IMG/VR virus record: IMGVR_UViG_3300034106_000909
Location: 1-58,566 of that record
Reading direction: 5' to 3' (one strand)
Length of the DNA: 58,566 nucleotides
Origin: a virus
Taxonomy: Duplodnaviria; Caudoviricetes
Both the position numbers and the translations under genes were made by a program. Shown piece by piece: positions 2,483 through 55,257 of this stretch (position 1 is the stretch's first letter; each line of letters opens with the position of its first letter). Below the pieces are notes generated by a model. The model did no database searches and had not been told where the DNA came from. It saw nothing but the letters and a program-made list of their open reading frames with translations.

Positions 2483-2483
2483 C

Positions 2484-8269: not shown

Positions 8270-8271
8270 TG

Positions 8272-8299: not shown

Positions 8300-8363
8300 A
8301 GAGCCACGAACAAAAAGCCCCAACGTCGAATGACGCATTGGGGCACAACCGCATTGGAACAAC

Positions 8364-9020
8364 ATGACAAACCCGGCTTGGACGTACAGCCAACTCGACA
8401 CATTCGAGACGTGCCCGCGTAAGTTCTACCACCTCAAGGTCAAGCGCGATATCGTTGAGCCGCCTACCGTATACACTGAGTGGGGTACACGAGTTCACAC
8501 CGCGTTCGAGGACTTCATCAAGGACGGCGTCATGCTGCCCGAAGGTATGGAGCAGTGGCAGAAGCTGGCATTCAAGCTGGCCAAACTGCCCGGTGCAAAG
8601 CTGTGCGAACAGGCATACGCACTCGACCGTAACTTCCAGCCTACAGAGTGGAGCGGTTCATGGACTCGCGGCATCGCTGACTTGGTTGTGCTTCATGGCG
8701 ACAAGGCCATCGTCGCAGATTACAAGACCGGAAAGCGCAAGCCCACAGAGCAGCTCGACTTGTATGCCAACTATGTGTTTGCCCACCACCCAGAGATCAA
8801 CAAAGTTACCACGGGCTTCATTTGGCTCAAGGAAAAGAAGATCGACTGGACGCCACGCGAACGCTCTGAGGTGCCCATCATTTGGCAGAACTTTGTACCC
8901 CGTGTAAACAAGCTGGAGTCAGCCTACGAAAGAGACAGGTGGCCAGCCAAAACGTCAGGGCTGTGTAAGGCTTGGTGCCCAGTATTGAGCTGTGAATTCA
9001 ACGGAAGGAAAAACACATGA
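8364..9020 (+). CDS. PD-(D/E)XK (Cas4/RecB-like) exonuclease
   Basis: CPRKF...GTRVH...GIAD...DYKTG plus C-terminal CxxxCxxxxC. Confidence 0.9.
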   Translation: MTNPAWTYSQLDTFETCPRKFYHLKVKRDIVEPPTVYTEWGTRVHTAFEDFIKDGVMLPEGMEQWQKLAFKLAKLPGAKLCEQAYALDRNFQPTEWSGSWTRGIADLVVLHGDKAIVADYKTGKRKPTEQLDLYANYVFAHHPEINKVTTGFIWLKEKKIDWTPRERSEVPIIWQNFVPRVNKLESAYERDRWPAKTSGLCKAWCPVLSCEFNGRKNT

Positions 9021-9493: not shown

Positions 9494-9815
9494 AGGCAAG
9501 GTCAAAGACGCTTGCAAGCAATACCTCAAGTCCATCGGCGCTTGGTTCTTTATGCCCGTGTCCAATGGCATGGGGCAAGTTGGAATCCCTGACATCATCT
9601 GCTGCTACAAGGGCATCTTCATAGCTGTTGAAACCAAAGCACCGGGCAAGCGTAGCCAGACAACTGCCAACCAAGACCGAGTAATCGGTGCCATCAAAGA
9701 AGCTGACGGATGGGCCATCGTGGTGGACAATGTCGAGCAGCTTGAACAGTTCGTTCTGGCCATCAAAGCCTACTATCGTTTGGAGAATGAAAATGCCGAA
9801 ATCTACCCCTCGTAA
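9477..9815 (+). CDS. VRR-NUC nuclease (putative junction resolvase)
   Basis: PEGKVK...GIPDII...ETKAPG...Q motif set. Confidence 0.9.
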   Translation: MAQTPEGKVKDACKQYLKSIGAWFFMPVSNGMGQVGIPDIICCYKGIFIAVETKAPGKRSQTTANQDRVIGAIKEADGWAIVVDNVEQLEQFVLAIKAYYRLENENAEIYPS

Positions 9816-10059
9816 ATTGGAATACCAGAAGTCCTATAACGCTCGCCCTGAAGAAGTGGCCAAGCGTGTGAAGAACAACGCTGCAAGGCGCGAAGCCATC
9901 AAAGACGGCAAGGCCAAGGTCGGCGATGGTAAAGACGTAGCGCACAAGAAATCACTGGAGAACGGCGGTGGCAACCACAAGGCCAACACAGCAGTTCAAG
10001 ACCGAACAACCAACCGTGGATGGAGGAAAGGCAGTGGCAGTTACAACCCCGATAAATGA
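9793..10059 (+). CDS. Basic HNH-like protein
   Basis: GDGKDVAHKKSLENGG...N...NR; GGAG RBS. Confidence 0.65.
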   Translation: MPKSTPRKLEYQKSYNARPEEVAKRVKNNAARREAIKDGKAKVGDGKDVAHKKSLENGGGNHKANTAVQDRTTNRGWRKGSGSYNPDK

Positions 10060-10063
10060 AGGC

Positions 10064-10261
10064 ATGTGGACGCCGGGATTTGTATTCTTCGGCGTGCCGC
10101 TACCTAAAGGGATAGTTCGCTGCGAGCTAATGCGCGATCTTATGTGGGATGTCGTAAACGTACACTGGATCACACAAGATGGATCAAAACACTCCATGCC
10201 ATTTGAACAAACAGACGAAGGAGTCATGGCAGCTATCGCCGCAATGAAACTCACATGCTAA
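10064..10261 (+). CDS. Small hypothetical protein
   Basis: Fills the gap before the helicase; start uncertain. Confidence 0.5.
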   Translation: MWTPGFVFFGVPLPKGIVRCELMRDLMWDVVNVHWITQDGSKHSMPFEQTDEGVMAAIAAMKLTC

Positions 10262-11826
10262 TTCACAAAGAAAAAAAGGCTGTCGTACTCAAGCTTCGCA
10301 ACCCATCACGAGTAACGACAGTCATACCAACCGCGAAGTTGGTAGAACACAAAGGATCGACACTGGTTGCGATACCACACAGGCCCGACGAAACTCGGGT
10401 GCTGCGTAACTTGGGCTTTGAGGTTCCTGAACCCATGCCCATTCACTACGACTGGCCCAAGGTCAGCGGCAGACATGCGCCGTTCTCTGCGCAGCTCGAC
10501 ACAGCATCGTTCCTTTCTATGAACAGCCGTGCGTTCTGTCTCAACGGTATGGGCACTGGCAAGACCAACAGCGCACTGTGGGCGTATGACTATCTGCGCC
10601 GCACCAAGACCGTGAGCAAGGTGCTTGTGGTGTGTCCTCTGTCTACCATGGAGCGCACATGGGCTGACTCAGCCTTTCAGACGTTCCCACATCTTGACTG
10701 CGTTGTGCTGCACGGCACACGAGAGCGCCGTAATAAGCTGCTTGCACAAGACGTTGACATCTATGTCATCAACATTGACGGGCTATCTACCATCAAGGAT
10801 GCGCTGGCCAAGCGGCCTGATATCGACCTGATCGTCATCGACGAGCTTGCACTGGCACGCAACTCAGGCACAGACCGCTGGAAGATTCTCAACACTATCT
10901 GCAACAAGCAGGCTCCTCGCCGTGTGTGGGGCATGACAGGATCGCCAACACCTAACGCACCGACTGACGCATGGGCGCAGTGCAAGCTGGTAACTCCTGA
11001 CAACCCAACCATGCCCAAGTATTACAGCGCGTTCCGCGACCGCGTGATGCGCCAGATCACCCCATTCAAATGGGCGGCGCGGCAGGACGCCAACGAGGCT
11101 GTGTATCAGATGATGCAGCCAGCTATCCGGTTCTCGCTGGATGACTGTGTGGACTTGCCAGAGCAGACGTTCATCACCCGCGACGTGGCCCTCACCAAGG
11201 AGCAGGAGAAGGCCTACAAGGACATGATTAACAAGCTGTCTACCGAGTATGCAGGCGGTCAGATTCTGGCTGTCAATGAGGCTGTGAAGGCCAACAAGCT
11301 CATCCAAATTGCGTGTGGTGTCGCCTACGGGACAGGTGGTGAACACGTCGTCATCCCATCCAAGCCACGCATGGACGTACTCAAGGAAGTCATCGAGGAA
11401 TCTGAAGGCAAGGTCATCGTCTTCGTGCCGCTGACAGGCGCTTTGGAAAGCGTAGCGTCAGAACTGCGTAAGGATTTCACGGTAGAAACGGTGCATGGCG
11501 GAACTAGCAAGTCCGAGCGAGATCGTATTTTTAGTGAGTTCCAACGAGGGCTTGACCCAAGGGTTTTGGTGGCTAACGCCTCAACCATGAGCCATGGCCT
11601 GACACTGACGGCAGCAACCACCATCGTGTGGTACGCCCCGGTTCACTCGAATGAGACTTACGAACAGGCTTGTGCGCGTGTAAGACGCCCGGGCCAGACA
11701 AGAACCACAGTGATCGTTCACATTGCAGGTACGGATGTTGAGCGGCGTGTGTATAAGAGGCTGCAAGACAAGCAGTCTATGCAGGGTGTGTTACTCGACA
11801 TGATGAAGGAACGGATAGACCAATGA
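10255..11826 (+). CDS. SNF2-type SF2 helicase
   Basis: MGTGKT, IDE, TGSP, HGLTL and QACARVRRPGQ motifs. Confidence 0.93.
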   Translation: MLIHKEKKAVVLKLRNPSRVTTVIPTAKLVEHKGSTLVAIPHRPDETRVLRNLGFEVPEPMPIHYDWPKVSGRHAPFSAQLDTASFLSMNSRAFCLNGMGTGKTNSALWAYDYLRRTKTVSKVLVVCPLSTMERTWADSAFQTFPHLDCVVLHGTRERRNKLLAQDVDIYVINIDGLSTIKDALAKRPDIDLIVIDELALARNSGTDRWKILNTICNKQAPRRVWGMTGSPTPNAPTDAWAQCKLVTPDNPTMPKYYSAFRDRVMRQITPFKWAARQDANEAVYQMMQPAIRFSLDDCVDLPEQTFITRDVALTKEQEKAYKDMINKLSTEYAGGQILAVNEAVKANKLIQIACGVAYGTGGEHVVIPSKPRMDVLKEVIEESEGKVIVFVPLTGALESVASELRKDFTVETVHGGTSKSERDRIFSEFQRGLDPRVLVANASTMSHGLTLTAATTIVWYAPVHSNETYEQACARVRRPGQTRTTVIVHIAGTDVERRVYKRLQDKQSMQGVLLDMMKERIDQ

Positions 11827-12209
11827 AATTATCAGAAGCAGTGAGCCTGTACATACAGCTCCGTGACAAGAAGGCAGAGATGAAGGCAGAGTTTGACGCC
11901 ACCATCGCTCCCTTAAACGACAAGATGGACAAGCTGGAAGCCAAACTTCTGGACGTGTTCAACAAGACCGGCATGGACTCAGTCAAGACTGAGAACGGTA
12001 CGGCTTATACCGCTGTGCGTACAACCGCCAGCATTGCAGATCGTGAGGCTTTCATGGAGTTTGTGAAGGCCAACGAAGAATGGAGCTTGCTTGAAGTGCG
12101 TGCATCAAAGACCGCCGTTGAGCAGTTCCGTGAGTCCAACAATGACGAACTGCCACCGGGTGTAAATATCCGGTCAGAACGCGTTGTAAACATCCGCCGC
12201 TCGGCATAA
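11823..12209 (+). CDS. Conserved coiled-coil phage replication-module protein
   Basis: Position between helicase and SSB; LPPGV C-terminal motif. Confidence 0.75.
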   Translation: MKLSEAVSLYIQLRDKKAEMKAEFDATIAPLNDKMDKLEAKLLDVFNKTGMDSVKTENGTAYTAVRTTASIADREAFMEFVKANEEWSLLEVRASKTAVEQFRESNNDELPPGVNIRSERVVNIRRSA

Positions 12210-12236
12210 ACTCTCAACCCCAACTAACCGAAGATC

Positions 12237-13178
12237 ATGAACATCATTCCATTTGACTCCGGCAGCAAACTGCCCGCATTCCTGAAAAAAGTCGACGTCG
12301 CGGCTTTGAACTCTGACCTTACAGCCCACGCTGGTGGTGGCTTCCCTGTGATTTCGATCAAGGGTAAGGTCTTCGCAGTCGTCCGTGATGGCGACCGTGA
12401 GATTCAGATGAACCCCAAAGACCCCGACAGCGCAGCTACCAGCCTGAACGTGGTGTTGTTAAAAGCCAACAAGGGCACCAGCAAGGTGTTCTACATCAAG
12501 GGCTACGACAAGGACACCAGCGAAGGCCAGAAGCCTGACTGCTACTCCAACGATGGCGTTGAGCCAGCGGCTGATGCACAGAACAAGCAGGCCAAGAAGT
12601 GCGCTACATGCCCTCACAACCAGTGGGGTTCGCGTGTCTCTGAGAAGGGCGCTACCAAGGGTAAGGCTTGCGCTGATGCTGTTCGTATGGCCGTGGCTCC
12701 TGCGGGTCAGATCAACGACGCCATGCTGCTGCGTGTGCCACCTGCGTCCATCAAGGCTCTGGGTGAGTACGGTCAGATGCTGGCCAAGCGCGGTGTCGGC
12801 TACAACATGGTCGTGACCAAGGTCGGCTTCGACCTGCAAGCTGAATCTCCCAAGCTGACGTTCTCTGCTATCGGCCTGCTGGATGACGACGGCTTCGCTG
12901 AGGTGCAGGAAATCGCTGCATCCGACGTGGTGTCCAACATCCTCGGTTCGTCTATCATGGCCGCTGTTGCTGCTGAAGCTGCTGCGCCTGCGGAGGAACC
13001 TGAAGAAGAGCCCGCATCAAAACCAGCGGCTAAGCCCAAGGCAGCGCCCAAGCCAGTAGTTGAAGAAGACGAAGAGGAAGCCCCGGCACCTAAGCCAGCG
13101 GCCAAACCCAAGGCTAAACCAGCTCCTGTGGCTGATGTCATGGACCTAGACCTCGACGACATAAACTTCGACGACTAA
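12237..13178 (+). CDS. Single-stranded DNA-binding/annealing protein
   Basis: PDC...CxxCP...KAC core, Ala/Pro/Lys linker and acidic tail DLDDINFDD. Confidence 0.7.
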   Translation: MNIIPFDSGSKLPAFLKKVDVAALNSDLTAHAGGGFPVISIKGKVFAVVRDGDREIQMNPKDPDSAATSLNVVLLKANKGTSKVFYIKGYDKDTSEGQKPDCYSNDGVEPAADAQNKQAKKCATCPHNQWGSRVSEKGATKGKACADAVRMAVAPAGQINDAMLLRVPPASIKALGEYGQMLAKRGVGYNMVVTKVGFDLQAESPKLTFSAIGLLDDDGFAEVQEIAASDVVSNILGSSIMAAVAAEAAAPAEEPEEEPASKPAAKPKAAPKPVVEEDEEEAPAPKPAAKPKAKPAPVADVMDLDLDDINFDD

Positions 13179-13246
13179 GCAGCCAGTGGGGTCAGTGACG
13201 TATCTTTTTAGACGCGACTGCAGTACACTGACCCCCACTCTTGTGG

Positions 13247-13265
13247 GCCCGCTTGCGGGCTTTTT
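13247..13265 (+). terminator. Intrinsic terminator
   Basis: GCCCG-CTTG-CGGGC followed by TTTTT. Confidence 0.75.
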
Positions 13266-13319
13266 CGCTTTCTGGAGTCGTCATGAGTTGCATAAATACA
13301 ACAGTTAGTGGGGTGACCA

Positions 13320-16300
13320 GTGAACACCCTTGAGTTTCTCAAAGCAATCCTGCCCGAACACGGCATTCACTACTTAGCTCTGTTCAAAGAGGGCTACAAA
13401 TTTCCGGCTCACAAGGTTTACATCGACCTTGAGACCATGGCAGAGGCAGTTGACGGTATGGCTGGCAGCAAGCAGCTGTCTGTGTATCACGCCTGTGCTT
13501 CGTACCAGAAGGCCGTCATCGAGTTGGACGAGCTGGACAAGAACGGCAACAACAAACGCAAGTACCGAGTCCCTGAGAACTGGGACAAGGCCAAGTCGTT
13601 CTGGGTGGACGTTGACTGCGGCCAAGACAAGTTCGACAAGGGGCAGGGCTATCTGACCAAGAAGGACGCTGTTGTGGCCATGGCCAAGTTCGCCAAAGAA
13701 GTAGGCGTACCAAGGCCGCTGATGGTTGACTCCGGTAACGGCATCCATGCCTACTGGCCCTTGACCAAAGACATTGGACCGGAACTGTGGCGCAAGGTAG
13801 CCGTAGTCCTCAAGTCCACGCTGGCTCACTGCAAGGTTATCGCTGACCCGACACGCACAGCAGACTTCAGCTCCATCCTCAGACCCGTGGGTTCTACCAA
13901 CCGCAAGAACGGTGACGCCAAGACCGTTAAGGTACTGGCTACCTGCGAAGCCATTGACCCCAAAGAATTTGCTCAGCCACTGTTTGACTACGCCAAAGAG
14001 AATGACGTCAAGCTGATCCGCGAAGCGCCTAAGAAGCAGTACCAGCCGAATGATCTTAATTCCGATCTGACCGGCCACCTGCACCAATACCCCGAAGTTC
14101 CCGTCGATGCGAACGTCATGGCTGACAAATGCCAGCAGGTCGGAAAAATGCGCGACACCAAGGGTGATGTGTCCTACGATCACTGGTGGAAAGTTATCGG
14201 ACTGCTGACTTTCTGCGAGGGTGGGCGCGAAACTGCGGAGGAGTGGACAGTCAACCGCGCAGCTACTGACCATAAAAACTTGGACTGGGATGTCAAGTAC
14301 GACACTTGGAGCGCTGGCCCAACATACTGCGAGACGCTGGATAGCTGTAACCCGGGTGGCTGCAACGGCTGCGCGTTCAAGGGCAAGATAACTACCCCAC
14401 TGCAACTCGGGCGCGTCATGCCCGAGCCGGAAGAGACCGTCGAGGAGGTGGTCACTGAGTCCGGTACTACAGAGCAAACCACTGTTCCTGCCGTACCTAG
14501 GGGCTACCAGTGGGACAGCCACCTGCTGAGTCGGTTGATTCCCGACAAAGAAGGCGTCATGCAGGTGTTCCCCTTCTGTGAGAACTTGTTCTACCCCATC
14601 ACGCGCATACGTGGCGAAGACGGCACGTTCCGTTATGGCATCCGGTTCCACCTGCCCGACAAACGCGTTCGTGAATTTGAAATCCCCGGTGAGTCGGTGG
14701 CGTCCCCGACAGACATGCTGCGGGCCTTAGCCCGGTACGAACTTACCAAGAGCAACCACAAAAATGCAGGAGAGCACATGGCCGCATACCTGTTGGACCA
14801 GCTCCAAGCCCTCAAACGTAATATCTCTGAAACCAACACCCTGACTTCGTTCGGGTGGAAGGAAGATCACAAGGCGTTCCTGCTTGGTGAAACGCTTCAT
14901 TTCGCTGACGGTTCTGAACGCCCAGTGCTGGTGGGCGGTAACGCCAAAGAGCGTGTGGCTACGTTCCGCAATGGCCGTGGCAGTCTGCAAGGCTACGCAG
15001 ACGCTATGAACTTCATGTACAACCGCCCCGAAGCTGTCCACTGGCAGTACACCGTGTGCGCTGGATGGGGATCACTGCTGTCGCATCACTGCGAAGACCT
15101 GTACAAGGGTTTGATTCTGGCGCTGCAGGGCGGCAAGTCAGGTCGCGGTAAGACTACTGCGTGCCACGCTGCGCTGGCTGCGTTCGGCAATCCTGAGAAG
15201 ATGACCCTCAACTCCAAGGAGGGCTTCACCACCAATGCTTTGTGGGCTACGCTGGGTGTGTTCAACAACATCCCCGTGCTGGCTGACGAGCTGACCAACA
15301 TGGACGCTCCGGTGTTCAGTGATGTGGCGTACGGGGTATCCAACGGCCAAGACCGTATCCGCATGACCTCCAAGGGCGGCACTGTGGTGTTCGCCAAATC
15401 GTCCGAGTGGCGTCTGAACGTGTACGTGACTGGCAACCGGGACTTCTACGGACTGCTTGCGGCCAACCAAGCCAACTCACAGGCTGAGGCTGTGCGCCTG
15501 ATTCAGCTCAACGTGGATCGCTACGACCCGCTGATGCTGGTAAACCGAGCTGAGTTCCCTGACACCGAAGAAGGTGAGGACGCATGGAGGTCAGCCTCTG
15601 CCATCGTGGCTGCGGAGAACATCAAGCAGATGACGGCCAACTCTGGGCACGCTGGTGCTGCCATGGTCAAGTACATCTTGGCCAACGAAGCTGAGGTTCG
15701 CAAGGACATGCAGACCATGCTGTCCAAGTTCACCGACGTGCTGTCCAACCCCAAGTTTAGGTTTTACAGGGCACACAGCGCATGCACAATCGTGATCGCC
15801 AAGATCGCCAAGAAGCTGGGTATTGTGGACTTTGATATCCGTGAGATGTACAAGTTCACCGTGGGCCTGCTGCACGAACTGGCTGAGTCCGTGGAAGAGA
15901 ACAACACCGTGACGTCGGAAGATGCGTTCCAGCGCATGGTTGGCCAGCTTAGCCCCCGCGTCATCGTAACCACCGAATGCCGAGATGGTCGTGACGCTCG
16001 TGGCCCTGAAACCCCGCGTAACCGCGTCATTGGACCGATTGCAGGTCGCTACATACTTGGCACAGTCAACCACAAAGAGTTTGCCGGTCGTTTGATTTTG
16101 AGCCAGAAGGAAGTGCGGGAATGGTGCATGGCCAACCGCATGGACTACCAGTCGATGGTAGCCAGCCTCAAGGAAGCTAAGGCTCTGGTATCCCATGGTG
16201 AGAAGTTTGTCATCACCCGTGGAACTGACTGCACATCACAGCAGCAACGCTGCATTGTGGTGGATACCAAGCGCCTGAACGCTGAGTCAACAGCCCCTGT

Positions 16301-16352
16301 ATTGACCTTGGTTAGCAACAGACTTGACGGGGATGCAGCCAGCGATATATGA
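13320..16352 (+). CDS. Primase-helicase (AEP/RepB-like primase, PriCT, DUF927-type P-loop helicase)
   Basis: DVD and SGNGIHAYW primase motifs; Cys cluster; Walker A GKSGRGKTT; Walker B LADE. Confidence 0.88.
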   Translation: MNTLEFLKAILPEHGIHYLALFKEGYKFPAHKVYIDLETMAEAVDGMAGSKQLSVYHACASYQKAVIELDELDKNGNNKRKYRVPENWDKAKSFWVDVDCGQDKFDKGQGYLTKKDAVVAMAKFAKEVGVPRPLMVDSGNGIHAYWPLTKDIGPELWRKVAVVLKSTLAHCKVIADPTRTADFSSILRPVGSTNRKNGDAKTVKVLATCEAIDPKEFAQPLFDYAKENDVKLIREAPKKQYQPNDLNSDLTGHLHQYPEVPVDANVMADKCQQVGKMRDTKGDVSYDHWWKVIGLLTFCEGGRETAEEWTVNRAATDHKNLDWDVKYDTWSAGPTYCETLDSCNPGGCNGCAFKGKITTPLQLGRVMPEPEETVEEVVTESGTTEQTTVPAVPRGYQWDSHLLSRLIPDKEGVMQVFPFCENLFYPITRIRGEDGTFRYGIRFHLPDKRVREFEIPGESVASPTDMLRALARYELTKSNHKNAGEHMAAYLLDQLQALKRNISETNTLTSFGWKEDHKAFLLGETLHFADGSERPVLVGGNAKERVATFRNGRGSLQGYADAMNFMYNRPEAVHWQYTVCAGWGSLLSHHCEDLYKGLILALQGGKSGRGKTTACHAALAAFGNPEKMTLNSKEGFTTNALWATLGVFNNIPVLADELTNMDAPVFSDVAYGVSNGQDRIRMTSKGGTVVFAKSSEWRLNVYVTGNRDFYGLLAANQANSQAEAVRLIQLNVDRYDPLMLVNRAEFPDTEEGEDAWRSASAIVAAENIKQMTANSGHAGAAMVKYILANEAEVRKDMQTMLSKFTDVLSNPKFRFYRAHSACTIVIAKIAKKLGIVDFDIREMYKFTVGLLHELAESVEENNTVTSEDAFQRMVGQLSPRVIVTTECRDGRDARGPETPRNRVIGPIAGRYILGTVNHKEFAGRLILSQKEVREWCMANRMDYQSMVASLKEAKALVSHGEKFVITRGTDCTSQQQRCIVVDTKRLNAESTAPVLTLVSNRLDGDAASDI

Positions 16353-16353
16353 T
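16324..16353 (+). promoter_or_regulatory. Sigma70-type promoter overlapping the primase stop codon
   Basis: TTGACG-18 nt-TATGAT. Confidence 0.55.
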
Positions 16354-16358
16354 CCGCC

Positions 16359-16435
16359 CGCCGATTGTCATGTCGGTTCCTTTAGTGTGTTGAGAAACCT
16401 TGACCCCCGAGCTGCAAAGCCCGGGGGCTTTTTTT
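16359..16435 (+). ncRNA. Candidate antisense sRNA complementary to early-gene RBS regions
   Basis: Promoter upstream, 5' hairpin, single-stranded UUCCUUUAGUGUGUUGAGA, intrinsic terminator. Confidence 0.5.
16404..16435 (+). terminator. Intrinsic terminator at the convergence of the two arms
   Basis: CCCCCGAGCT-GCAA-AGCCCGGGGG followed by C and T7. Confidence 0.8.
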
Positions 16436-16437
16436 CG

Positions 16438-16575
16438 TCACTTCTTGGCCTTGGCCATGCAAGCGCCCATCTTGGCGCACTTGGCTGGGTTAGGGCACTT
16501 AGCACATGGCTTGAATGGAGCAGCTTTTTTACCTGCGGGGGCCTTGGCCATCATCATCTTTTTACCGTACATCAT
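16438..16575 (-). CDS. Tiny Lys/Ala/Met-rich protein with 4 Cys (45 aa)
   Basis: GGAG RBS; MMYGKKMMMAKAPAGKKAAPFKPCAKCPNPAKCAKMGACMAKAKK; below the ORF-track cutoff. Confidence 0.7.
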   Translation of the reverse strand: MMYGKKMMMAKAPAGKKAAPFKPCAKCPNPAKCAKMGACMAKAKK

Positions 16576-16595
16576 GGGAATCTCCAGTTGGGGGG

Positions 16596-16829
16596 TTAGC
16601 GGAACTTCGCGGTTTTTGCAGCTATCTTTTTGGGTTGAGCTACAAACTGTTTCCCCGCAGCTTTGCCAGCGCGTTTTGCACGCGTTGTCGCAGCGTATTC
16701 AGCAGGGCTAAGACTTTTAATTGCAGACTCAGGTAGATACCTTTCGCCCGTGTCAGATGATCGTTTTCCACTTTTGGTCTTCCAGTTTTGGTTGGTCCAC
16801 TCTTTGAGGGACTTCTGAGGGGCTTTCAA
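16596..16829 (-). CDS. Small basic protein (DUF5872-like, C-terminal part)
   Basis: SLKEWTNQNWKTKSG...ERYLP motif. Confidence 0.75.
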   Translation of the reverse strand: MKAPQKSLKEWTNQNWKTKSGKRSSDTGERYLPESAIKSLSPAEYAATTRAKRAGKAAGKQFVAQPKKIAAKTAKFR

Positions 16830-17014
16830 TCTCTGTACCCCCCGCCAGCGGCTTTATATTTCTTGGCCACAAGTTGCGCCTTACGAGCTGACCATTGGCC
16901 AGCACCAGTGCCTTGGGTAGCTGCGGCTTTTACCTGACTGACGATCCGCTTGCGCAGCTCGGGCTTGGTGTAATTGCCAGCAGCGTTGACTGTGGATTTG
17001 GACTTGGTGGCCAT
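16826..17014 (-). CDS. Small basic protein (DUF5872-like, N-terminal part)
   Basis: YTKPELR...GQWSARKAQL...GGGY motif. Confidence 0.75.
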   Translation of the reverse strand: MATKSKSTVNAAGNYTKPELRKRIVSQVKAAATQGTGAGQWSARKAQLVAKKYKAAGGGYRD

Positions 17015-17015
17015 G

Positions 17016-17270
17016 TCAGCACTTCCATGCACGCAACGATTTGTTGATGCGGCTGTTGGGGTCGTTGGCCGTCTTCTCGCTGGTCAGCTTCTTTTTCATG
17101 CCTTCCATCCGAGCACAGAACGAGTCGCGTCGTGGACCGCCTTCTGGTTGAGGAGCCTTGAGCCCCGGCTTGCCGGGGTTAGCTTTGTTGTAGGAGGCAC
17201 GCCCCTTGGCGTTGAGCCCGCCCTTCTCAGCTTTACCTTCTTTGCGTGTCCACGCAGGTGTCTTAGCCAT
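17016..17270 (-). CDS. Small basic protein (DUF6321-like)
   Basis: GGLNAKGRAS...RRDSFCARM...SLRAWKC. Confidence 0.78.
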   Translation of the reverse strand: MAKTPAWTRKEGKAEKGGLNAKGRASYNKANPGKPGLKAPQPEGGPRRDSFCARMEGMKKKLTSEKTANDPNSRINKSLRAWKC

Positions 17271-17281
17271 GGTGTTTCTCC

Positions 17282-20200
17282 TTAGTTGGCTGTTACATCT
17301 TCGGCCAGTTTACGCTGACCTTCACGGTACTGTACACCACCAACCGTACGCTTCTCGCGCTGCGCTTGTTCCTGCGGAGCCTTGAGCAGGTTGGACATTG
17401 GTTGAGGCTTGAGGCCGTTACGCTGACGCGCTTGCTGGAGTTTAGTCCATGCCTCACGAGCCTCCTGCATGGCAGCAGTATCCTTCTGGCGAGACGCTTG
17501 GGCGTAGTCGTTCTTGATACGCGTGGTGCGGTCTTGAAAGTTCTGCGTGATATCACGCATGCGGTTCTGGCGCTCGTAGGTCACTGACTGCTGGACCGAT
17601 GGTATACCAAGGCCTGTCAGCACAGTTTCTATTGCTCCAATTTCGCTTTCTGGCAGGACTACGTCACCGTTGCGGCGGGTCATACCCTCAGTTGCCTGAC
17701 GGCCAGACTTAAGCGCATCGGACACACCCTTGGGCATTACACGCTCGAGACCCTTGTAGTAGTCACCCTTGGACATGAGGATGAGACCGTCAGCAACTCG
17801 GGTAGCCATACCCAAAGATGCCCCGCCAAGAGCTGCACCAAAAGCTTCAACTTGACCTGAAGTGGTGCTCAAGTCAGCGTTACTAAATGGCAGAATGGAC
17901 AACATATTGCCCGCACCGATCTTGCCGGACAAGTCCATACCAACAATCGTCGGAGCGCCGCGCATAATCATGTCAGCCCACTCAGGGCCAAGCGCCTTGC
18001 GCATATCAGCAGTCAAGTCGTATGGCTCGTCTTCGTCACCGAACAACCCCAACACAAACGAAATAGCCGCGTAGCCCGGCATGCCCATCAAGCCAGCAAA
18101 CACTCCAGTGTGGCCAAGCGAGTAGGCCAGTGTCTTCATGGCAGCAGCACGCTCATCAGGCTTGGTAAACGCATCACGAATCAGCTTGGCATAGAACGCG
18201 ATCTGGATCAATTGGAACTTGCGGAACTGCAGCGCCACCTTACCCCACTGGGTGTTGAACGCACGAGGAGCGTTAAAGGCTGTGTAGTCACCATGGGTGT
18301 CAGTCAAGATGTCAGCAGCGTACTGCGTGGCTGCAGCTTTAGGGTCTGCAATTTTTGGGTCTTTTTTAGCCCGCTCAAACTCCAAACGGTACGCAGCAAT
18401 GGCGGTAGACAAACGGTTGGTAGCTTCAACTTTCTGCACGGCCATGCGCATACCTTTGTTCAGGCGCTGCGCAAACTTGCTGAGGTTGCCGTCGGCTTCT
18501 ACCTTGTACTCGTTGATCTCAGTGGCCAGACCAATGTCGATCTTGCCTTGGTTGACCAAGTCGTTAATAGCTGCACGCACATCAGCAGGCACCTTGGAGA
18601 AATCAAACTGCTGGTCAAACAGTTTCACGTCCTTGAACAGTGGGCCCAACTCACCATACGCCTTAGCCAGTTCCGCAGCAGCTTTGGTGTAGTCATGACG
18701 ACCCGCCATGGCAGGCAGAGACATCATGAATGGCTGTGTCAAGTTCTGTAAATAGTACGCAGGGCTGGAGGCCAAGAAGAACTTGGACGCCATGTTGGTC
18801 AAGCCGTTGAGGAACGGACTTGGTTTAGGGTCAAGCGAGTCAGCGTAGCGCTGCGTCAACTCATCAAAGATTTCAGACTTGCGTTCGCGTTCGCCAGTGC
18901 GTGACTGGTTGCGCATCTGCTGCAGGGCATCCTGAATCTTAGGCTCAAACTCTACGCTGGCCAAGAAGTTAGCATCGGCACGGCCTTGCTGCGTGAACGA
19001 CTGAAGCATGTCCACTTCACCGGCTACACCACGGCGACGCATCTCAGACTTGCGGGCACTACCCTCAGCCAACGCTTCCAAGTACAACTGGTTAATGATG
19101 TTGAGCAGCTTGCCAGCAGATGGGTCAATCTTGCCATCTTCTCTGGTGTTTTGTGAGGTCACAGCCGAGCGCATCTTTGTCAGCGCGGGCATCAAAGCGT
19201 TTTTGCTAAAGTCATCCATGGCTTCAGCACGTTTAACGATGTTGATGTCCAAGTTCGGATAGGCTTCGGCCAGTGAATCTTTTAAATTTCTACCAGTCCA
19301 CTTGGTGTCAACAAACGACACGCTGTAGTGGTTTGGGTCAGACTCCATCTTTTTGATGGCCTCCGCGTCTTTATTTTCTTTGGCAGCCCTAAAAGCGGCA
19401 GATTCAGCAACCACAGCATAAGTACCAGTGCGCTTAATAGGCGCGTAGGGCACGCCCTCACGGATGCGGAACAGCGTCTGGAAGCGCTTGAGCGTATCGG
19501 CTTTTTCTGCTTTGAGCTCAGCCAAGTTTTCTTTGGCTTTTTTCAAATCTTTTTTGTCGGTGGTGTTGTTGACTAAGTCCTGCGCAGCCTTAATCATGGC
19601 GTCGTACTCAGAGTTGGCTGCGTTCAGCACAATCGTCTTCTTGCTTGACAGCATAGCGTCGCCATGGGCAAACACGTCTTTGGCAAACTGCTGAGCCTTG
19701 GGGCCCAGCTTGTTGAACATGGCCTTCATCGCTGGGTCAGCTTTGAACTTCGCAGTGTCGTAGCCCCACTTCCCCGTGCGGGTGGACTCAAACAAGAACT
19801 CGTTGACTGAGCCGGGGCCGTCCCCTTTGTTGGCATCTTCAATCAAGGCATAGCGGTCGGCAATCTTTTCAATCTTGCGCTCTTCCTCACTGACCTTGGC
19901 GTTGCGGGCAGCAAGGCGGTCGGAGAAAGTCTTGGCAGCGCCCAGACCCAAAGCTTGAGCACGCTTGACCAGATCGTTTGTAAACAGCGCGTAGTCGACA
20001 TACTTGCCGCCCAAGTCACCAATGGCCTCAGTTATACGCTTCACAGGCTGCTGAGACATCTTCGGCAGCTTGGCAATGTTGCGGTCGATCAGGCCTTGAG
20101 AGCGGTTTGCCCTGAAACGAACGGCAGTTTGCCGGAGGGGAACTTGTCTCGGCTGACCATTCCCTTGCGTGGTTTGGCCCCCAGCTTGCGTTGAGCGTTG

Positions 20201-23200
20201 AGCTTCATTTGCCTTTGCAGCGGCGTAGTCGGTTTGCTTGACTTGTTCATATACTTGCTCCATGAAATCTGCCACTTCTGGCAGGTTGTCTTCCAAAAAT
20301 TCACGACCGTCGCGTGTAGTGTATGTGGCCCACAACTGAGCAAACAATTCCTCGCGGATGCCATTGCCGTCCAAGTCACCGTGCTGCGTACGATCAAATG
20401 GATACGACAAGTGCTTTGACAAGTCGGATGTGGGGTTGCTATTGTAGTGATCGAACGCAGCTTTCATAACCGCGCCCATGGGTTTGATCTCGCCGTTTTG
20501 CAACCGCACGTTAAATTCAGGCAAGCTAGAAAATACACCACCGCCTTCAAGATGTGTCTGATCTGCAGCATGACCGACTTCATGGTACACAGTCCACTCG
20601 ACACGCTGAGAGTCTGTTAAAGCACCACGGCGTAACAGCACAGCTGCTTGACCGTCAATGGCAGTAAAGCCGCCATCCCAGTTCACCTTGGAGTCGGTGA
20701 CATACCACCCACCGACGTAATCAACCAAGTCGCCAAGACCTTCTTTGCGCAAGCGGTCAGTAGCAGCGCCAACACCGGGAACAGCTTCAAGACGTGACAG
20801 CTCTTGCTCCTGCAGTTCAACAGTCGCATTGTCTTCGTCCACCGTGGTTACAGTGCGCAGTGCGTTGAACTTTGCGCCACCTCTAGCCAACTTAGTCAGC
20901 TCATTTTCAACGTCATCCTTGGTCCAGTTGTCTGGGCCGAACTCAATGAAGTTCTCCTGCTGGGCCTTGGTCAAGTCAGCGAACTTGGGAGCCTGCGGGA
21001 AGTCAGCAGCGACTACATCCCACGCTTGAGCGGCTTGTTCTGCTTCGGTGAGGATGACGGCTGGGACTTGGGCTTTACCTTCTGCGGCAGGCTTTTTGGC
21101 ACGCCGTACTTTTGTGCCCACTCCTTGGCCAGTTTCGGCTTTTGGCTGAACAGATACCCCTGCTGGGCTTTCGACTTGAACGGCATCTGGCTCTCCTAGT
21201 TCTTTGGGTTGTTCGGCTTTAGCGGCGGTTTCCTCCGCAGCGTCTTTTTCAGACTTGCGGCCAGCAAGGGCTCGAACTTCTGCTTGAGCTTGCTTTTCAA
21301 CTGCCTTGACCTTTTCAATCTGCGCGGCCAGAGTGGCATTCAGTTGCGCCAATACTGCTTCGTCGGTCTCTACGGCCAGCGCCTCAAGCGTGGCGTCAAT
21401 TTCTTTTTGGAGATCGGTAAAGCCTTCAACAGCAGATGTACTAGCGCCTGCAGTCTTGACGATGTTACCCAGACCGGCTTCAATGGCTTGGTCCTCGTCC
21501 ATGCGATCTTGGCTGTCAGTAAATACCTCTTTGGCAATTTGACCTTCTGTGCTTTCTGGCGAAACCGTGTTGAACGCATCTGCAATCTGCGCATCAGTCA
21601 AGTTAAATTTAGTCTTGGCGCTGGCAATCAGCGCTGGCCATTCTTTTTGGCCAGTAGCCCCAGCAATTGCTTGGATAGAAGACCGGCTAAGTCCATACTT
21701 GGTAGCCGCTTCTGGCTCAGGCATGCCCATGCCAACCACGTCAAAAATGATGCCGCCGTTACGTTCACCAAAGATTTGCTGCAGTATTGCTTGGCGTTCG
21801 TCTACGACTGGTCCTGCGGCGGCAGGTGTCGCTTGTCCTTGCGTTTCTGCTTGCTGGGCTTGAGCGGCTTTAGCGGCATTTGCGGCTTCCAATACTGTCA
21901 TGGGTCGCGGAGCGCGACGGAAACGGGTTTGTGGTGCTGTGTCTGTAGCAGGTGCAGTCTGAGTTAAACCGGTAGATGGTTGCCCGGGGGTACTTGGAAG
22001 AACGCTAGTTTGTTGAAGTGCTCCTCCAGCGACTGGGGCACCTCCGACCATTGTTCCTGCGACAGGAGCAGCTGGTCCTGCATTTCCCACGCCTCCTTGA
22101 ACGACAGGGCTCCCGACTCCCAAGCCTCCTGCAGGCTGCTGTACAGTAGAAACTGGTGCGCCACTTGGTGCCTCCTGACGAGCTTTAATAATTGCCGAGT
22201 CCAACAACTCTCGTGCTTTTTCCAAGCGCTTGGGAGTCATCGGCTTATCGCTAGCAAACTTCCAAACGTCTATGAACAAGTCGGAGTCCAGCGGCACTCC
22301 AGTTGCTTGAGCGTCAGCCGTAATTTCTGAGTAAAACTGCAACGACGACGGAGTCGGTGTCACATTAAACGTGTCACGCAGTTCGTACGAACGTGGGTCG
22401 CGTACGGTACTTGCTACTACTTGAGCAGTTGCCGCTGCCTCTGCTGGCTTTTCTTGGGTCAAGTCAAGCGCTGCTTGCGAACGCTGCAGGGCTTCGCCCA
22501 CTGTCAAGGGGCGTTCAATGCCGGTCTCTGGGTCGCTGACAAACTGGCCAGTGGGTTCATCGTACGCCGCTTTGAACTGCGCTACATAGTCTTTACGCTT
22601 GGGGCGTGTGATACCTACGTTCTGGTTAATAAACGACTGTAAGCCAACAGTTTGGTCTTGAGTAACAAACTGGCTTTCAAGTGGGCGTTGCACCAAAGGT
22701 GTTTGATCTTGTTCAGTAGATGTCAGATCGCGCTCACGAGCAGCGTCACGGAAACCTTGGCTACGACGCCAACCGCCAGCAGCACCGCCAAGCAAGCCAC
22801 CAAGCAGACCGCCACCTACAAAGGACTCTGCGTAGTCGTCCATGGCCTCCGGGCTAAACAGTTCAACACGCGGGTCAACGGCTAACCGGCCCACGTTGGA
22901 GATGTATTCTTGGCCGACTTCACCAATAGCTTCGGATAAGCCCGTACGACCAAATGCCGCGCCAGTGCGTGCAGCACCGCCCGTAAACCCGCTAAGGTTG
23001 TCAAGATATCGGTTAGCCACAGATGCAGCGCGTTCAGCCCGAACACCAGTACCGGCCAACTTGCCAACAATACCAGTAGCAGCTTCAACACCGCCATAAG
23101 CCAGACCAAGAGGAACAGCCGTCAAATCGGTGCGGCCAGTCTGCTCACGTTGAGCTTGCGCCACAGCACCTATACCGGTAAGACCGGCGACACCGTACGC

Positions 23201-54117: not shown

Positions 54118-54252
54118 CGTGTGGCTGTGTAAGTTTCGCGTAAGACGACATACATACACTCAAAAATTCGGCTACCCCATCGTTCAGGCGTCACGCATGG
54201 GGGCAGGCATCCAGACGCTACATAACTATCTCTCAACACACAAGGAATCATC

Positions 54253-55257
54253 ATGCGTTACAGCAATATCAAAACATCTGTTCTCGAACAGTTCCAAGTG
54301 GAGGGCGGCAATGCCGTTGTCCCATTCATCCTAGGCGCACCCGGTGGTGGCAAGTCAGCCTGTGCTCGTGAGGTTATCTCTGAGCTTGGCATCGAGCCCG
54401 ACAAGATCGTGGAGTTCACGGCATCCCTGCGTGACCCTGTTGACGTGCTTGGCGTACCTGACAACACTGGCGAGTACACACGCTGGGTTCCACCCCAAGA
54501 GTTCTACAACCTGCGCCAAGGTCAAGGACGCGCAGCACTCATTCTGGAGGAACTGTCCGATGCGCCTGTGCCAATGCAGAACGCCTTATGTGGCGTGATT
54601 TACGACCGTCGTGCTGGCAACCTCATGCTGTCTGACGAGTTGTTCATCATCGCCACTGGCAACCGCACCGAGGACAAGTCTGGTGCCAACCGCATCACAT
54701 CCAAGTTAGCCAACCGCACACGGCGCTTCGACTTCCAAGAGACCATCGAGGACTGGACTGCATGGGCGCTCGACAAGGATATCGACCCTGTGTTGATTCA
54801 GTTCCTGCGTTTCCGTCCCGGTCTGCTGTCTGACTTCGATGCCAACCGCTTCGCCAACCCAACGCCTCGTTCATGGGAGCGTGTCAACCTCATCCCTGAC
54901 AGCCTCGACAAGGGTCTGTTCTTCGACAACTGCGCTGGTGAGGTGGGCGAGGGCGCTGCTGCTGAGTACACTGGCTTCAAGCGTATCTACGAGTCACTGC
55001 CTGATATCGACGGTATCTTGCTCGACCCTGCTGGCTCAGATGTACCCCAAGACCCTGCGACGCTGTACGCCCTGACTGGTGCGCTGGCTCGTAAATCCAC
55101 CAAGGACAACTTCGACCGTGTGTCTAAGTACTTGAGTCGCCTGTCTCCTGAGTTCAACGTCATGGCAACCAAGGACGCGATCAAGCTGCAGCCTGCGATC
55201 AAGCACACACGTAGCTTCGTCGAGTGGGCGTCCAAGAACGCAGAAGTCCTCATGTAA
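54253..55257 (+). CDS. MoxR/dynein-related AAA+ ATPase
   Basis: Walker A GAPGGGKS; Walker B LILEE; ATGN; LANR; TPRSW. Confidence 0.9.
   Translation: MRYSNIKTSVLEQFQVEGGNAVVPFILGAPGGGKSACAREVISELGIEPDKIVEFTASLRDPVDVLGVPDNTGEYTRWVPPQEFYNLRQGQGRAALILEELSDAPVPMQNALCGVIYDRRAGNLMLSDELFIIATGNRTEDKSGANRITSKLANRTRRFDFQETIEDWTAWALDKDIDPVLIQFLRFRPGLLSDFDANRFANPTPRSWERVNLIPDSLDKGLFFDNCAGEVGEGAAAEYTGFKRIYESLPDIDGILLDPAGSDVPQDPATLYALTGALARKSTKDNFDRVSKYLSRLSPEFNVMATKDAIKLQPAIKHTRSFVEWASKNAEVLM

What the first reader, a model, noticed from the sequence alone, without database searches (positions are those of the whole stretch)
16324..16435. Candidate phage sRNA antisense to the ribosome-binding regions of several of its own early genes
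Seen: a TTGACG-18-TATGAT promoter overlapping the primase stop codon, then a 5' hairpin (GCCGA/TCGGT), a single-stranded tract and a GCAA-loop terminator with T7. The reverse complement of 16364-16395 is TCTCAACACACTAAAGGAACCGACATGACAAT. It matches four translation-initiation regions elsewhere in the genome. (a) AAA ATPase leader 54231-54255: TCTCAACACAC (11/11), then AAGGAA after a 2-nt bulge, then CATG. (b) 4543-4562 CACTAAAGGAGCACACATGA: 17/20, with one mismatch pairing as G-U. (c) 52560-52582 CTCAACACA...GAACC..ATG. (d) 51009-51023 TCAAC-CACTAA-GGAA. Known: trans-acting sRNAs repress translation by covering the SD and start codon. Inference: this is a multi-target RNA made at the end of the replication operon that shuts off early-gene (or host) translation, i.e. 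an RNA-based early-to-late or superinfection switch.
Basis: partly seen in the sequence, partly recalled or inferred. Interest (0 to 1): 0.85.

Follow-up and report, generated by a model that had tools for sequence, protein, structure and literature searches.

The report
Phage small RNA mirroring gene starts
A short RNA gene at the end of this phage's primase gene is conserved in dozens of related uncultured phages and keeps changing in step with the ribosome-binding region of the phage's own ATPase gene, so it most likely switches that gene's translation off.

Summary
All features sit at the stated coordinates: TTGACG-18-TATGAT across the primase stop codon, a 5' hairpin, a UUCCUUU tract, a terminator with seven T, and the four matches.

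Comparison with relatives supports a + strand RNA gene.
- The element follows the primase gene in all 13 whole genomes searched, once each, and in 62 sequence versions.
- Conservation peaks at TAnnAT (58 of 60) and at TTG 18 nt upstream (47 of 60).
- The 5' hairpin is paired in every cell of a 21-sequence alignment. Four of its 6 pairs show compensating changes, with 16 G-U cells and no A-C.

The seed co-varies with the ATPase leader of the same genome in five matched forms. That start region ranks 1-3 of 85-105 in 7 of 7 nearer genomes. The hairpin loop tracks codon 2 of the exonuclease gene in 13 of 14 genomes.

- Within one genome, pairing energies are no better than shuffled controls.
- Matches (c) and (d) rank 10th and 11th of 98 and are not conserved.
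- The gene of match (b) is absent from 11 of 12 relatives.
- In the four most distant genomes, neither target pairs.

No RNA data could be found. Verdict: a new family of a known kind, a trans-acting repressor RNA. Its timing role is inferred only.

The parts
16324..16329 (+). -35 element TTGACG, inside the last codons of the primase gene
   Evidence: Across 60 distinct versions, TTG stands 18 nt upstream of the -10 in 47 of 60. Information content is 1.25-1.6 bits, against 0-0.7 bits in the flanking coding positions. The amino acid encoded there varies (L, F, V, T, D, S) while the bases stay the same (sequences).
16348..16353 (+). -10 element TATGAT, overlapping the primase stop codon TGA (16350-16352)
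   Evidence: TAnnAT is present in 58 of 60 versions. It is kept whether it overlaps the stop codon, lies 12-17 nt inside the coding sequence, or lies after the stop. Caveat: the -10 was used to anchor the profile.
16360..16377 (+). 5' hairpin H1: stem GCCGAU/GUCGGU, loop UGUCAU. It starts at the predicted first base of the RNA, 7 nt after the -10. The loop plus its 3' arm is the reverse complement of a start-codon context (ACAUGACAA).
   Evidence: In alignment A3 all cells are paired, 4 of 6 pairs change on both sides, and there are 16 G-U cells and no non-standard cell. H1 is more stable on the + strand in 51 of 59 versions, on the - strand in 6, with 2 ties.
16376..16395 (+). Seed. GUUCCUU (anti-SD, 16376-16382), a UA bulge (16383-16384), and GUGUGUUGAGA (16385-16395).
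   Evidence: The duplex with 54231-54248 has 18 bp with a 2-nt bulge and scores -24.4 kcal/mol. The seed changes together with the ATPase leader in relatives. It is unpaired in the centroid fold.
16404..16435 (+). Intrinsic terminator: stem-loop 16404-16427, then C and U7 (16429-16435). It is shared with the primase mRNA and probably also serves the convergent minus-strand operon.
   Evidence: In the model-fitted alignment A4, 7 of 7 stem pairs show changes on both sides. The stem alone is more stable on the minus strand in 37 of 59 versions.
54231..54255 (+). Predicted target 1: start region of the ATPase gene (54253-55257; PHROG 1297). It comprises the leader UCUCAACACAC, the SD AAGGAA and the AUG.
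   Evidence: It ranks 2 of 98 start regions in the window and 1-3 in 7 of 7 nearer genomes. Its mean z is -2.94, against -1.17 for the next gene family. The site is unpaired in the local fold.
8356..8370 (+). Predicted target 2: start region of the exonuclease gene (8364-9020; PHROG 69). GGAAC pairs with 16376-16380, and ACAUGACAA pairs with 16365-16373.
   Evidence: Its net pairing energy ranks 3 of 98 in the window. The first base of codon 2 (A or G) matches the H1 loop base (U or C) in 13 of 14 genomes.
16312..16371 (-). Minus-strand 19-codon ORF with SD. Read here as the unavoidable mirror image of an RNA that carries an anti-SD and an anti-AUG, not as a gene.
   Evidence: An SD followed by ATG is present in 38 of 62 versions. 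The ORF is 6-53 aa long, and a 1-nt loop indel shifts the frame between the window type and the L006/L007 type. The shared residues II and RQ coincide with the -10 and -35 elements.

Best explanation
Window 16360-16435 (+) encodes a small RNA of about 76 nt.

How it is made (inferred):
- Host sigma-70-type RNA polymerase starts it from a promoter built into the last codons and stop codon of the primase-helicase gene.
- It ends at the terminator it shares with the primase mRNA.
- This is the layout of 3'-end-derived small RNAs that have their own internal promoter.

What it looks like (shown):
- The RNA is the mirror image of a translation start region.
- It has a 5' hairpin whose loop holds an anti-start-codon context.
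- It then has a UUCCUU anti-Shine-Dalgarno tract and a lineage-specific anti-leader tract.

How it most likely acts (inferred):
- It acts in trans on the phage's own replication-arm mRNAs.
- Its seed pairs with 54231-54248, covering the SD of the ATPase gene about 20 kb upstream on the same arm.
- Its loop, 3' arm and anti-SD tract pair with the exonuclease start at 8356-8370.
- In both cases this keeps the 30S subunit off the mRNA and represses translation.
- Because the gene sits at the far end of the replication arm, the RNA would build up as that arm is expressed and feed back on those genes. The timing is also inference.

Shown by computation: conservation of promoter, hairpin and terminator; folding on the + strand; and co-variation with the two start regions. 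Not shown: that the RNA exists as a transcript, and that it represses.
For: 1. Conservation and copy number. The element is found once per genome, always after the primase gene, in 13 of 13 whole genomes. It is also present in 62 sequence versions from phages whose primase is 41-92% identical to the window's.

2. Promoter. Information peaks fall at T, A, A, T of TAnnAT (1.9-2.0 bits) and at TTG 18 nt upstream (1.25-1.6 bits). Neighbouring coding positions score 0-0.7 bits. TAnnAT occurs in 58 of 60 versions and TTG in 47 of 60.

3. Structure on the + strand.
- In A3, an alignment not fitted to the structure, 94.1% of cells are paired against 88.2% in shuffles, and no shuffle of 500 reaches the observed value.
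- H1 is 100% paired, and 4 of its 6 pairs change on both sides.
- There are 16 G-U cells and no A-C cell.
- H1 is more stable on the + strand in 51 of 59 versions.

4. ATPase target.
- Five leader forms are each matched by the RNA of the same genome: TCT, CCT, CTT, CAT or TTT before CAAC, and ACAC or CAC after it. One genome (G006) pairs through a G-U.
- Cognate pairs beat swapped pairs, with mean -19.3 against -14.6 kcal/mol over 17 pairs and permutation p about 5e-5.
- The ATPase start region ranks 1-3 of 85-105 in 7 of 7 nearer genomes.
- Shuffled flanks with the anti-SD kept reach the observed energy in 0-3 of 500 trials in those genomes.

5. Exonuclease target. The loop base and codon 2 agree in 13 of 14 genomes. 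Two predictions made beforehand were borne out, for the L008/L006 genomes and for G020. Net energy ranks are 3, 8, 7, 2, 10, 1, 3, 3 in eight genomes.

6. The exact motif ACGCATNGGGGC occurs only upstream of these two genes. The motif was derived from these two sites, so this is only a hint.
Against: - No transcript evidence: no RNA run was listed.
- Within a single genome, the number and strength of predicted duplexes are not above shuffled-flank controls.
- A genome-wide scan finds 4-58 windows of about 11,000-12,500 with lower energy than the ATPase site.
- In the window itself the minus strand of the whole element folds slightly better, -28.2 against -25.3 kcal/mol. The terminator stem alone is more stable on the minus strand in 37 of 59 versions.
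- In the four most distant genomes (G001-G004), neither target pairs. The ATPase start ranks 13-107 by seed duplex, and the two starts rank 27-85 and 34-76 by net energy. Shuffles reach the observed energy in 74-463 of 500 trials.
- In G009 and G013 the ATPase start ranks 41 and 19 by seed duplex but 6 and 2 by net energy. In G013 the exonuclease start ranks 44 of 105.
- G014 is discordant for the exonuclease rule.
- The permutation and shuffle tests do not correct for relatedness among the genomes.
- The -10 was used as the anchor for the promoter profile, so its conservation is partly circular.
- Host, chaperone and life style are unknown.
Confidence: 0.6

Rival explanations
1. It is only the 3' untranslated end and terminator of the primase mRNA. 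On this reading the hairpin protects the mRNA or helps termination between convergent operons, there is no separate promoter and no action in trans, and the resemblance to start regions is incidental.
For: - The terminator is plainly the primase gene's terminator and sits between convergent arms.
- Single-genome pairing energies are not exceptional.
- No RNA data exist.
Against: - TAnnAT and TTG are conserved at fixed spacing, independent of where the stop codon lies and of the encoded amino acids.
- The seed has no role in termination, yet it changes in step with the ATPase leader 20 kb away.
- The loop changes in step with exonuclease codon 2.
Confidence: 0.12
2. The functional strand is the minus strand. 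The element would be a real or vestigial gene start (leader, SD, ATG) for a tiny ORF (16312-16371), or a read-through start site behind the late operon's terminator.
For: - The minus strand reads as a textbook start region.
- In 38 of 62 versions an SD is followed by ATG at 5-10 nt.
- In G010 a true gene start (27066) has the same layout of hairpin, leader, SD and ATG, and gives a weak model hit on its opposite strand.
- The terminator stem is often more stable on the minus strand.
Against: - The ORF is 6-53 aa long. A 1-nt indel shifts its frame between close relatives.
- 24 of 62 versions have no SD followed by a start codon.
- All wobble pairs of H1 are G-U on the + strand, which would be A-C on the minus strand.
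- A + strand promoter is conserved.
- A mirror start region is what an anti-SD plus anti-AUG RNA must look like on the other strand.
Confidence: 0.08
3. The shared sequence is a DNA or RNA site for a co-evolving protein, such as a regulator or translational enhancer-binding factor. It would be present at the ATPase leader and, inverted, after the primase gene. The co-variation would then reflect the protein's specificity and not RNA-RNA pairing.
For: - The motif family (T/C)CAAC(A)CAC just before the SD recurs at several start regions, such as G010 27066, 36447 and 30731.
- A second conserved motif lies upstream of both the ATPase and exonuclease genes.
Against: - The positions that vary fastest are the ones that stay matched. 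That is typical of base pairing, not of a protein site.
- One lineage tolerates a G-U.
- This reading does not explain the + strand promoter, the + strand-specific hairpin, or the separate loop-codon 2 match.
Confidence: 0.07
4. It is a real small RNA, but its main targets are host mRNAs, reached through the CUCCU/UCCUU anti-SD tract. The phage matches would be secondary.
For: - The anti-SD tract, promoter, hairpin and terminator persist in the distant clade, where neither phage target pairs.
- The GUUGCC loop core is conserved there even without AUG complementarity.
- Lambda's PreS acts on host genes (abstract; discussion section).
Against: - The host is unknown, so this was not testable.
- It does not explain the lineage-specific co-variation with phage leaders.
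- It is not exclusive of the main reading.
Confidence: 0.1

Closest known systems
c4 antisense RNA of phages P1 and P7
   Same: - It is a phage-encoded RNA of similar size.
- It blocks translation of the phage's own gene by pairing around the ribosome-binding site, through sequences thought to sit in loops.
- The RNA-target match differs between related phages (heteroimmunity).
   Basis: passages of the review PMC12197685 read.
   Different: - From recall, c4 is cut out of the same transcript that carries its target.
- Here the RNA has its own predicted promoter and the targets lie about 20 kb and 8 kb away.
- No Rfam family, whichever are in the library, reached its threshold, so there is no sign of homology.
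- No immunity function has been shown here.
3'-end-derived small RNAs with an internal promoter (the DapZ and MicL type in enterobacteria; recalled, not read here)
   Same: The promoter lies inside the 3' end of the upstream coding sequence, the terminator is shared with the parent mRNA, and a seed acts in trans on start regions.
   Different: - The RNA is encoded by a phage and is aimed at the phage's own genes.
- The -10 element overlaps the stop codon.
- Chaperone dependence is unknown.
Lambda OOP RNA and P22 sar RNA
   Same: These are short phage RNAs (77 nt and 68/69 nt) that repress a phage gene by base pairing (table and text passages of PMC12197685).
   Different: OOP and sar are transcribed opposite to their target gene (sar from recall). 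Here no gene lies opposite the RNA, because the minus-strand gene ends at 16438, so the pairing is with distant sites.
Lambda PreS (LPR1) and small RNAs of virulent Pseudomonas phages (PAK_P3 sRNA1 and sRNA2)
   Same: These are phage-encoded trans-acting or candidate trans-acting small RNAs (abstract and discussion for PreS; passages of PMC4933390 for PAK_P3).
   Different: - PreS acts on host dnaN and alaS.
- The PAK_P3 RNAs have no established target, only 11-nt matches.
- Here the support is comparative (co-variation), with no expression data.

Membership tests
Trans-acting base-pairing small RNA that occludes the ribosome-binding site | A separate transcription unit, with its own promoter and an intrinsic terminator | tested here: met
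   In silico only. The -35 and -10 elements are conserved at fixed spacing. The terminator is conserved with compensating changes.
Trans-acting base-pairing small RNA that occludes the ribosome-binding site | The RNA accumulates as a discrete short transcript | not testable with these tools
   No RNA run was listed for the stretch.
Trans-acting base-pairing small RNA that occludes the ribosome-binding site | A seed complementary to the target's SD or start region, kept through evolution | tested here: met
   - ATPase.
- Exonuclease.
- Not met in the four most distant genomes.
Trans-acting base-pairing small RNA that occludes the ribosome-binding site | Repression of target translation that depends on the pairing | not testable with these tools
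   This needs reporter fusions with compensatory mutations.
Any curated Rfam family (anti-hemB, mmgR and the other weak hits) | A score at or above the family's gathering threshold | tested here: not met
   There were 0 matches at gathering thresholds in the whole window. The best sub-threshold hit was anti-hemB at 18.1 bits against a threshold of 49.5.
Cis-antisense RNA (OOP and sar type) | Transcribed opposite to, and overlapping, the gene it controls | tested here: not met
   The nearest minus-strand gene ends at 16438, beyond the RNA's 3' end. The only overlapping minus-strand ORF is not conserved.
3'-end-derived small RNA with internal promoter | A promoter inside the upstream coding sequence, and a terminator shared with the parent mRNA | tested here: met
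   The anatomy is shown, and promoter conservation. The start site has not been mapped.
Small protein gene on the minus strand | An open frame and peptide conserved among relatives | tested here: not met
   38 of 62 versions have SD plus ATG, lengths are 6-53 aa, and the frame is shifted in the L006/L007 types.

The most novel reading that the evidence does not exclude
The RNA and its target leaders may form a fast-diversifying specificity pair, like c4 and its sites in P1 and P7. Each lineage's mirror-start-region RNA would silence the replication genes (ATPase, exonuclease) of any incoming phage that carries the same leader, and spare those that have drifted. The five matched leader/seed forms among close relatives would then be the trace of an RNA-based exclusion contest between co-occurring phages, not simple self-regulation.
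Probability: 0.12. Interest if true: 0.85.

Novelty: new member of a known kind. Interest (0 to 1): 0.6.

Why it matters
- Few small RNAs are known from phages outside prophages of model bacteria, and fewer still have a target. The passages of PMC4933390 and the review PMC12197685 say so.
- Here a whole family is defined from sequence alone in a widespread group of uncultured, apparently freshwater phages of about 60 kb. Both its structure and its target pairing are supported by compensating changes.
- This gives a concrete, cheap experiment: cognate against non-cognate RNA-leader pairs in a reporter.
- It also gives a search image for phage small RNAs in metagenomes. The image is a promoter across a stop codon, a mirror start region, and a shared terminator at the meeting point of convergent arms.

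Tried and rejected
- RNAalifold on the raw 62-sequence MAFFT alignment A2 gave 0 pairs because the register was inconsistent. I then used a 21-sequence subset that I chose for alignability (A3) and a covariance model.
- A4 is fitted to the model and includes about 5 weak, probably spurious matches: L083:6638, L001:5850 minus, L045:6084 minus, L018:6010 minus and L042:716 minus.
- A second hairpin (H2, anti-SD against an SD-like GAGGA or GAAAAG) folds in many versions. Its register differs between clades in A3, so I did not count it as a conserved helix.
I repeated it at 10-nt steps for 7 genomes. The ATPase site lay in the top 0.03-0.5% but was never the single best window.
- The best start region in the window by seed duplex is gene 11823 (-27.6), a long G-U-rich duplex. 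It is absent from the six best-ranked gene families (by mean z) of the nearer genomes. In the distant clade its orthologue ranks 1 in G002 and 3 in G003. This is left open.
- Gene 55532 ranks first by net energy in the window (-23.3) and first in G004, but 8 to 69 elsewhere on the seed measure. This is also left open.
- A search for start regions carrying the complement of the distant clade's GUUGCC loop gave no consistent gene.
- The first attempt to list loop matches printed far too much and was only partly read.
- Pseudomonas phage Rollin, whose primase is 25% identical, has overlapping genes after its primase homologue and no such element.
- No cultured close relative was found by terminase search, where the best identity was 39.5%. 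The host stays unknown.
- No RNA holder was listed for window 14000-19000. This is not evidence either way.
- Supplementary files were not consulted.
- Literature: two searches. Neither listed a small RNA after a phage primase gene, nor one with co-varying own-gene targets, among the 32 titles shown. That is all I can say about what is in print.
Full report
**What the window is**

- The window is a complete virus record of 58,566 bases.
- One arm on the + strand (50224 to the end, then 1 to 16352) carries replication and recombination genes. These are the ATPase, DNA polymerase, exonuclease, helicase and a 1010-aa primase-helicase with DUF927.
- The minus-strand arm (16438-50167) carries the terminase, portal, capsid, tail genes and a DarB-like giant protein.
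- The finding lies in the 85-nt gap where the two arms meet.

**The observation**

- All features are at the stated places.
- TTGACG (16324-16329) and TATGAT (16348-16353) are 18 nt apart, and the -10 element spans the primase stop codon.
- The hairpin lies at 16360-16377 and the UUCCUUU tract follows it.
- The terminator stem-loop lies at 16404-16427 and is followed by seven T.
- The four quoted matches to start regions are present.
- No Rfam family reaches its threshold. The best sub-threshold hit scores 18.1 bits against a threshold of 49.5.

**Relatives**

- A primase query found 27 loci in viral contigs.
- A 9-sequence primase alignment found 273 relatives in metagenome contigs, of which the best 80 were kept.
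- I dropped loci whose primase gene or downstream DNA was cut off: L009, L023, L058, L068, L070-L072, L084 and L107. I dropped three where my script picked another ORF (L102-L104), and I dropped exact duplicates.
- That left 62 versions, including the window, spanning primase identity from 92% down to 41%.
- Each version folds into the same order of parts:
  - a TAnnAT box;
  - a hairpin starting about 7 nt later, present in 59 of 62;
  - a CUCCU or UCCUU tract;
  - a G+C-rich stem with a U run.
- One lineage (L078) lacks the hairpin but keeps the rest.
- A covariance model built from 21 versions finds one copy in each of 13 whole genomes, always at the primase 3' end. There was one extra weak hit (E 0.19) in G010.

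**Strand and structure**

- On A3, a MAFFT alignment not fitted to any structure, I named a two-helix structure. I chose the 21 rows for alignability.
  - 94.1% of cells are paired, against 88.2% in shuffles. No shuffle of 500 reaches the observed value.
  - Sliding the 3' partners by 1-3 columns drops pairing to 31-58%.
  - The 5' hairpin is 100% paired, and 4 of its 6 pairs change on both sides.
  - There are 16 G-U cells and no non-standard cell.
- G-C, G-U and A-U versions of the same pair occur in close relatives: L056, L052, L053; L031, L005, L039; and L088, L091.
- Each G-U would be an A-C on the other strand. Accordingly the hairpin is more stable on the + strand in 51 of 59 versions, on the minus strand in 6, and tied in 2.
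- The model-fitted alignment of 65 distinct rows leans towards the model and holds about 5 spurious rows. It gives 96.3% paired cells, and 12 of 12 pairs have double changes.
- Two results point the other way.
  - In the window itself, the minus strand of the whole element folds slightly better, -28.2 against -25.3 kcal/mol.
  - The terminator stem alone is more stable on the minus strand in 37 of 59 versions.
- I read these as the terminator serving both convergent arms.

**Promoter**

- I anchored the profile on the -10 box and examined 60 distinct upstream stretches.
- Information content peaks at T, A, -, -, A, T of the box (1.9-2.0 bits, with 0.4-1.0 in the middle).
- It also peaks at TTG 24-22 nt upstream of the box (1.25-1.6 bits).
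- Flanking coding positions score 0-0.7 bits.
- TAnnAT is present in 58 of 60 stretches, and TTG at the 18-nt spacing in 47 of 60.
- The box keeps its distance to the hairpin in three settings:
  - when it overlaps the stop codon (xTA TGA T);
  - when it lies inside the coding sequence (GTA nnA TCT, where the middle amino acid varies but its third base is always A);
  - when it lies after the stop.
- The -10 result is partly circular because I used it as the anchor. The -35 result is not.

**The minus-strand reading**

- The mirror strand looks like a start region because an RNA with an anti-SD and an anti-AUG must look so.
- As a gene it fails.
  - SD plus ATG is present in 38 of 62 versions.
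  - The ORF is 6-53 aa long.
  - A 1-nt indel in the loop shifts the frame between the window type and the L006/L007 types.
  - The only shared residues (II, RQ) are the -10 and -35 elements read backwards.

**Targets within this genome**

- By seed duplex energy, the ATPase start region is 2nd of 98 at -24.4 kcal/mol. The duplex has 18 bp with a 2-nt bulge and covers the SD.
- Matches (c) and (d) are 10th and 11th.
- Match (b) scores -23.7 and ranks 6 of 99 by net energy.
- By net energy, which includes unfolding of both RNAs, the top three of 98 are gene 55532, the ATPase and the exonuclease, at -23.3, -23.1 and -22.3.
- This is not more than chance within one genome. With the anti-SD kept and the flanks shuffled, control RNAs give on average 6.3 start regions at or below -20, against 5 observed. 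Their best hit averages -24.6.
- In a scan of all windows on both strands, 16 of 11,670 windows beat the ATPase site.

**Targets across genomes**

I fetched the ATPase loci of relatives and paired them with the RNA of the same record. I also fetched twelve whole records.

| Genomes | ATPase leader | RNA seed (+ strand) |
|---|---|---|
| Window clade | TCTCAACACAC | GUGUGUUGAGA |
| G007, G008 | TCCTCAACACA | UGUGUUGAGGA |
| G006 | TTCTTCAACACA | UGUGUUGAGGAA (one G-U) |
| L008 genome | TCTTCAAC | GUUGAAGA |
| G010, G012, G015 | CTTTTCAACCAC | GUGGUUGAAAAG |
| G011 | TCATCAA.CCA | UGGUUGAUGA |

- In each case AAGGA opposite UCCUU follows after a small bulge.
- G020 keeps the block CCTCAACACA, although 9 extra bases separate it from the SD.
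- Over 17 distinct pairs, cognate duplexes average -19.3 kcal/mol against -14.6 for swapped ones. The permutation p is about 5e-5 and is not corrected for relatedness.
- Among 32 gene families present in at least 5 of the 7 nearer genomes, the ATPase start has mean z -2.94 and ranks 2, 2, 1, 1, 2, 3, 1. The next family has -1.17.
- Shuffled flanks reach the observed energy in 0-3 of 500 trials in those genomes.
- In the six more distant genomes the picture is weak or absent.
  - Seed-duplex ranks are 41, 19, 71, 107, 13 and 65.
  - Shuffles reach the observed energy in 16, 39, 463, 374, 74 and 285 of 500 trials.

**The exonuclease start**

- The loop and 3' arm of the hairpin are complementary to ACAUGACAA at the exonuclease start, and the anti-SD is complementary to its GGAAC.
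- Where codon 2 is ACA, the loop reads UGUCAU. This holds in the window, G006, G007, G008, G011 and G017.
- Where codon 2 is GCN, the loop reads UGCCAU. This holds in G016, G005, G009, G010, G012, G018 and G020.
- The cases of L008/L006 and of G020 were predicted from the loop before I looked, and both held.
- G014 is discordant. That makes 13 of 14.
- Net-energy ranks for this start region are 3, 8, 7, 2, 10, 1, 3, 3 in eight genomes, 44 in G013, and 34-76 in the distant clade.

**Interpretation**

- The simplest account of all of this is a + strand small RNA made from its own promoter.
- It is a mirror start region that pairs with the ATPase leader and SD, and probably with the exonuclease start, and so blocks ribosome binding.
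- The rivals are a plain 3' end, a minus-strand start, and a protein site. Each leaves at least two of three things unexplained: the promoter, the strand-specific hairpin, and the two separate co-variations.
- Whether the RNA is made, when it is made, and whether it represses are not shown.
- Its role in the distant clade, where the promoter, hairpin, anti-SD and terminator persist without these targets, is open. Host targets are possible.

**Comparison with what is known**

- The kind is known. The passages and sections I read describe:
  - phage RNAs that block translation by pairing at the ribosome-binding site (c4 of P1 and P7, sar, OOP; passages of PMC12197685);
  - phage trans-acting small RNAs (PreS of lambda; abstract and one discussion section of the preprint 10.1101/2024.10.31.621285);
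  - abundant small RNAs of unknown function in virulent phages (passages of PMC4933390).
- This family matches no curated RNA family. It has the layout of 3'-end-derived small RNAs with an internal promoter, a comparison I make from recall.
- I file it as a new family of a known kind.

Noticed in passing
window 8333-8344 and 54193-54204: The exact motif ACGCATNGGGGC occurs only twice in the genome, about 20 and 50 nt upstream of the exonuclease and ATPase start codons, the two predicted RNA targets. With up to 2 mismatches there are 25 matches against 18.3 expected. The motif lies in hairpin-capable stretches: GCCCCAA...TTGGGGC before the exonuclease gene, and GCGTC...GACGC before the ATPase gene, which becomes GCGTAC...GTACGC in the 66% clade. 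It may be a shared promoter, operator or RNA structure.
   Followed up: partly
G010 record 27021-27080 (locus L180:7014-7080): The start region of a 222-aa gene with no homologue in the window is complementary to that phage's small RNA over about 40 nt: leader, SD and start codon (seed duplex -26.0; net energy -32.9, rank 1 of 85). Its opposite strand gives a weak hit to the RNA model (E 0.19). It is either a further target or a clue to how the RNA gene arose.
   Followed up: partly
window 16438-16575 (-): This is the last gene of the minus-strand arm. It encodes a 45-aa Lys/Ala/Cys-rich peptide with no Pfam match. Relatives carry similar short Cys-rich ORFs at the same place, but with much sequence and length variation.
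   Followed up: no
window 16404-16435: The terminator stem carries a conserved A-C mismatch on the + strand, which is a G-U on the minus strand. The stem alone is more stable on the minus strand in 37 of 59 versions. It probably terminates both convergent arms.
   Followed up: partly
window 17016-17270 (-): This 84-aa DUF6321 gene shares 71-78% nucleotide identity over 110-250 bases with genes of many Synechococcus, Prochlorococcus and Planktothrix phages. The rest of the tested 1.5 kb has no such matches, apart from one 64.5% match to a Roseobacter phage.
   Followed up: no
window 17282-23557 (-): This 2091-aa protein matches a DarB-like antirestriction family in its C-terminal 770 residues (E 2.9e-56). 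It lies at the end of the structural arm.
   Followed up: no
G002 record, gene 33882-34238: In the distant clade, this gene's start region matches its phage's RNA in two 8-nt blocks (ACAGGAGA and ATGGCAGT) separated by the hairpin's 3' arm. That is the same two-block pattern as the exonuclease start in the nearer clades (net energy rank 2 of 116).
   Followed up: no
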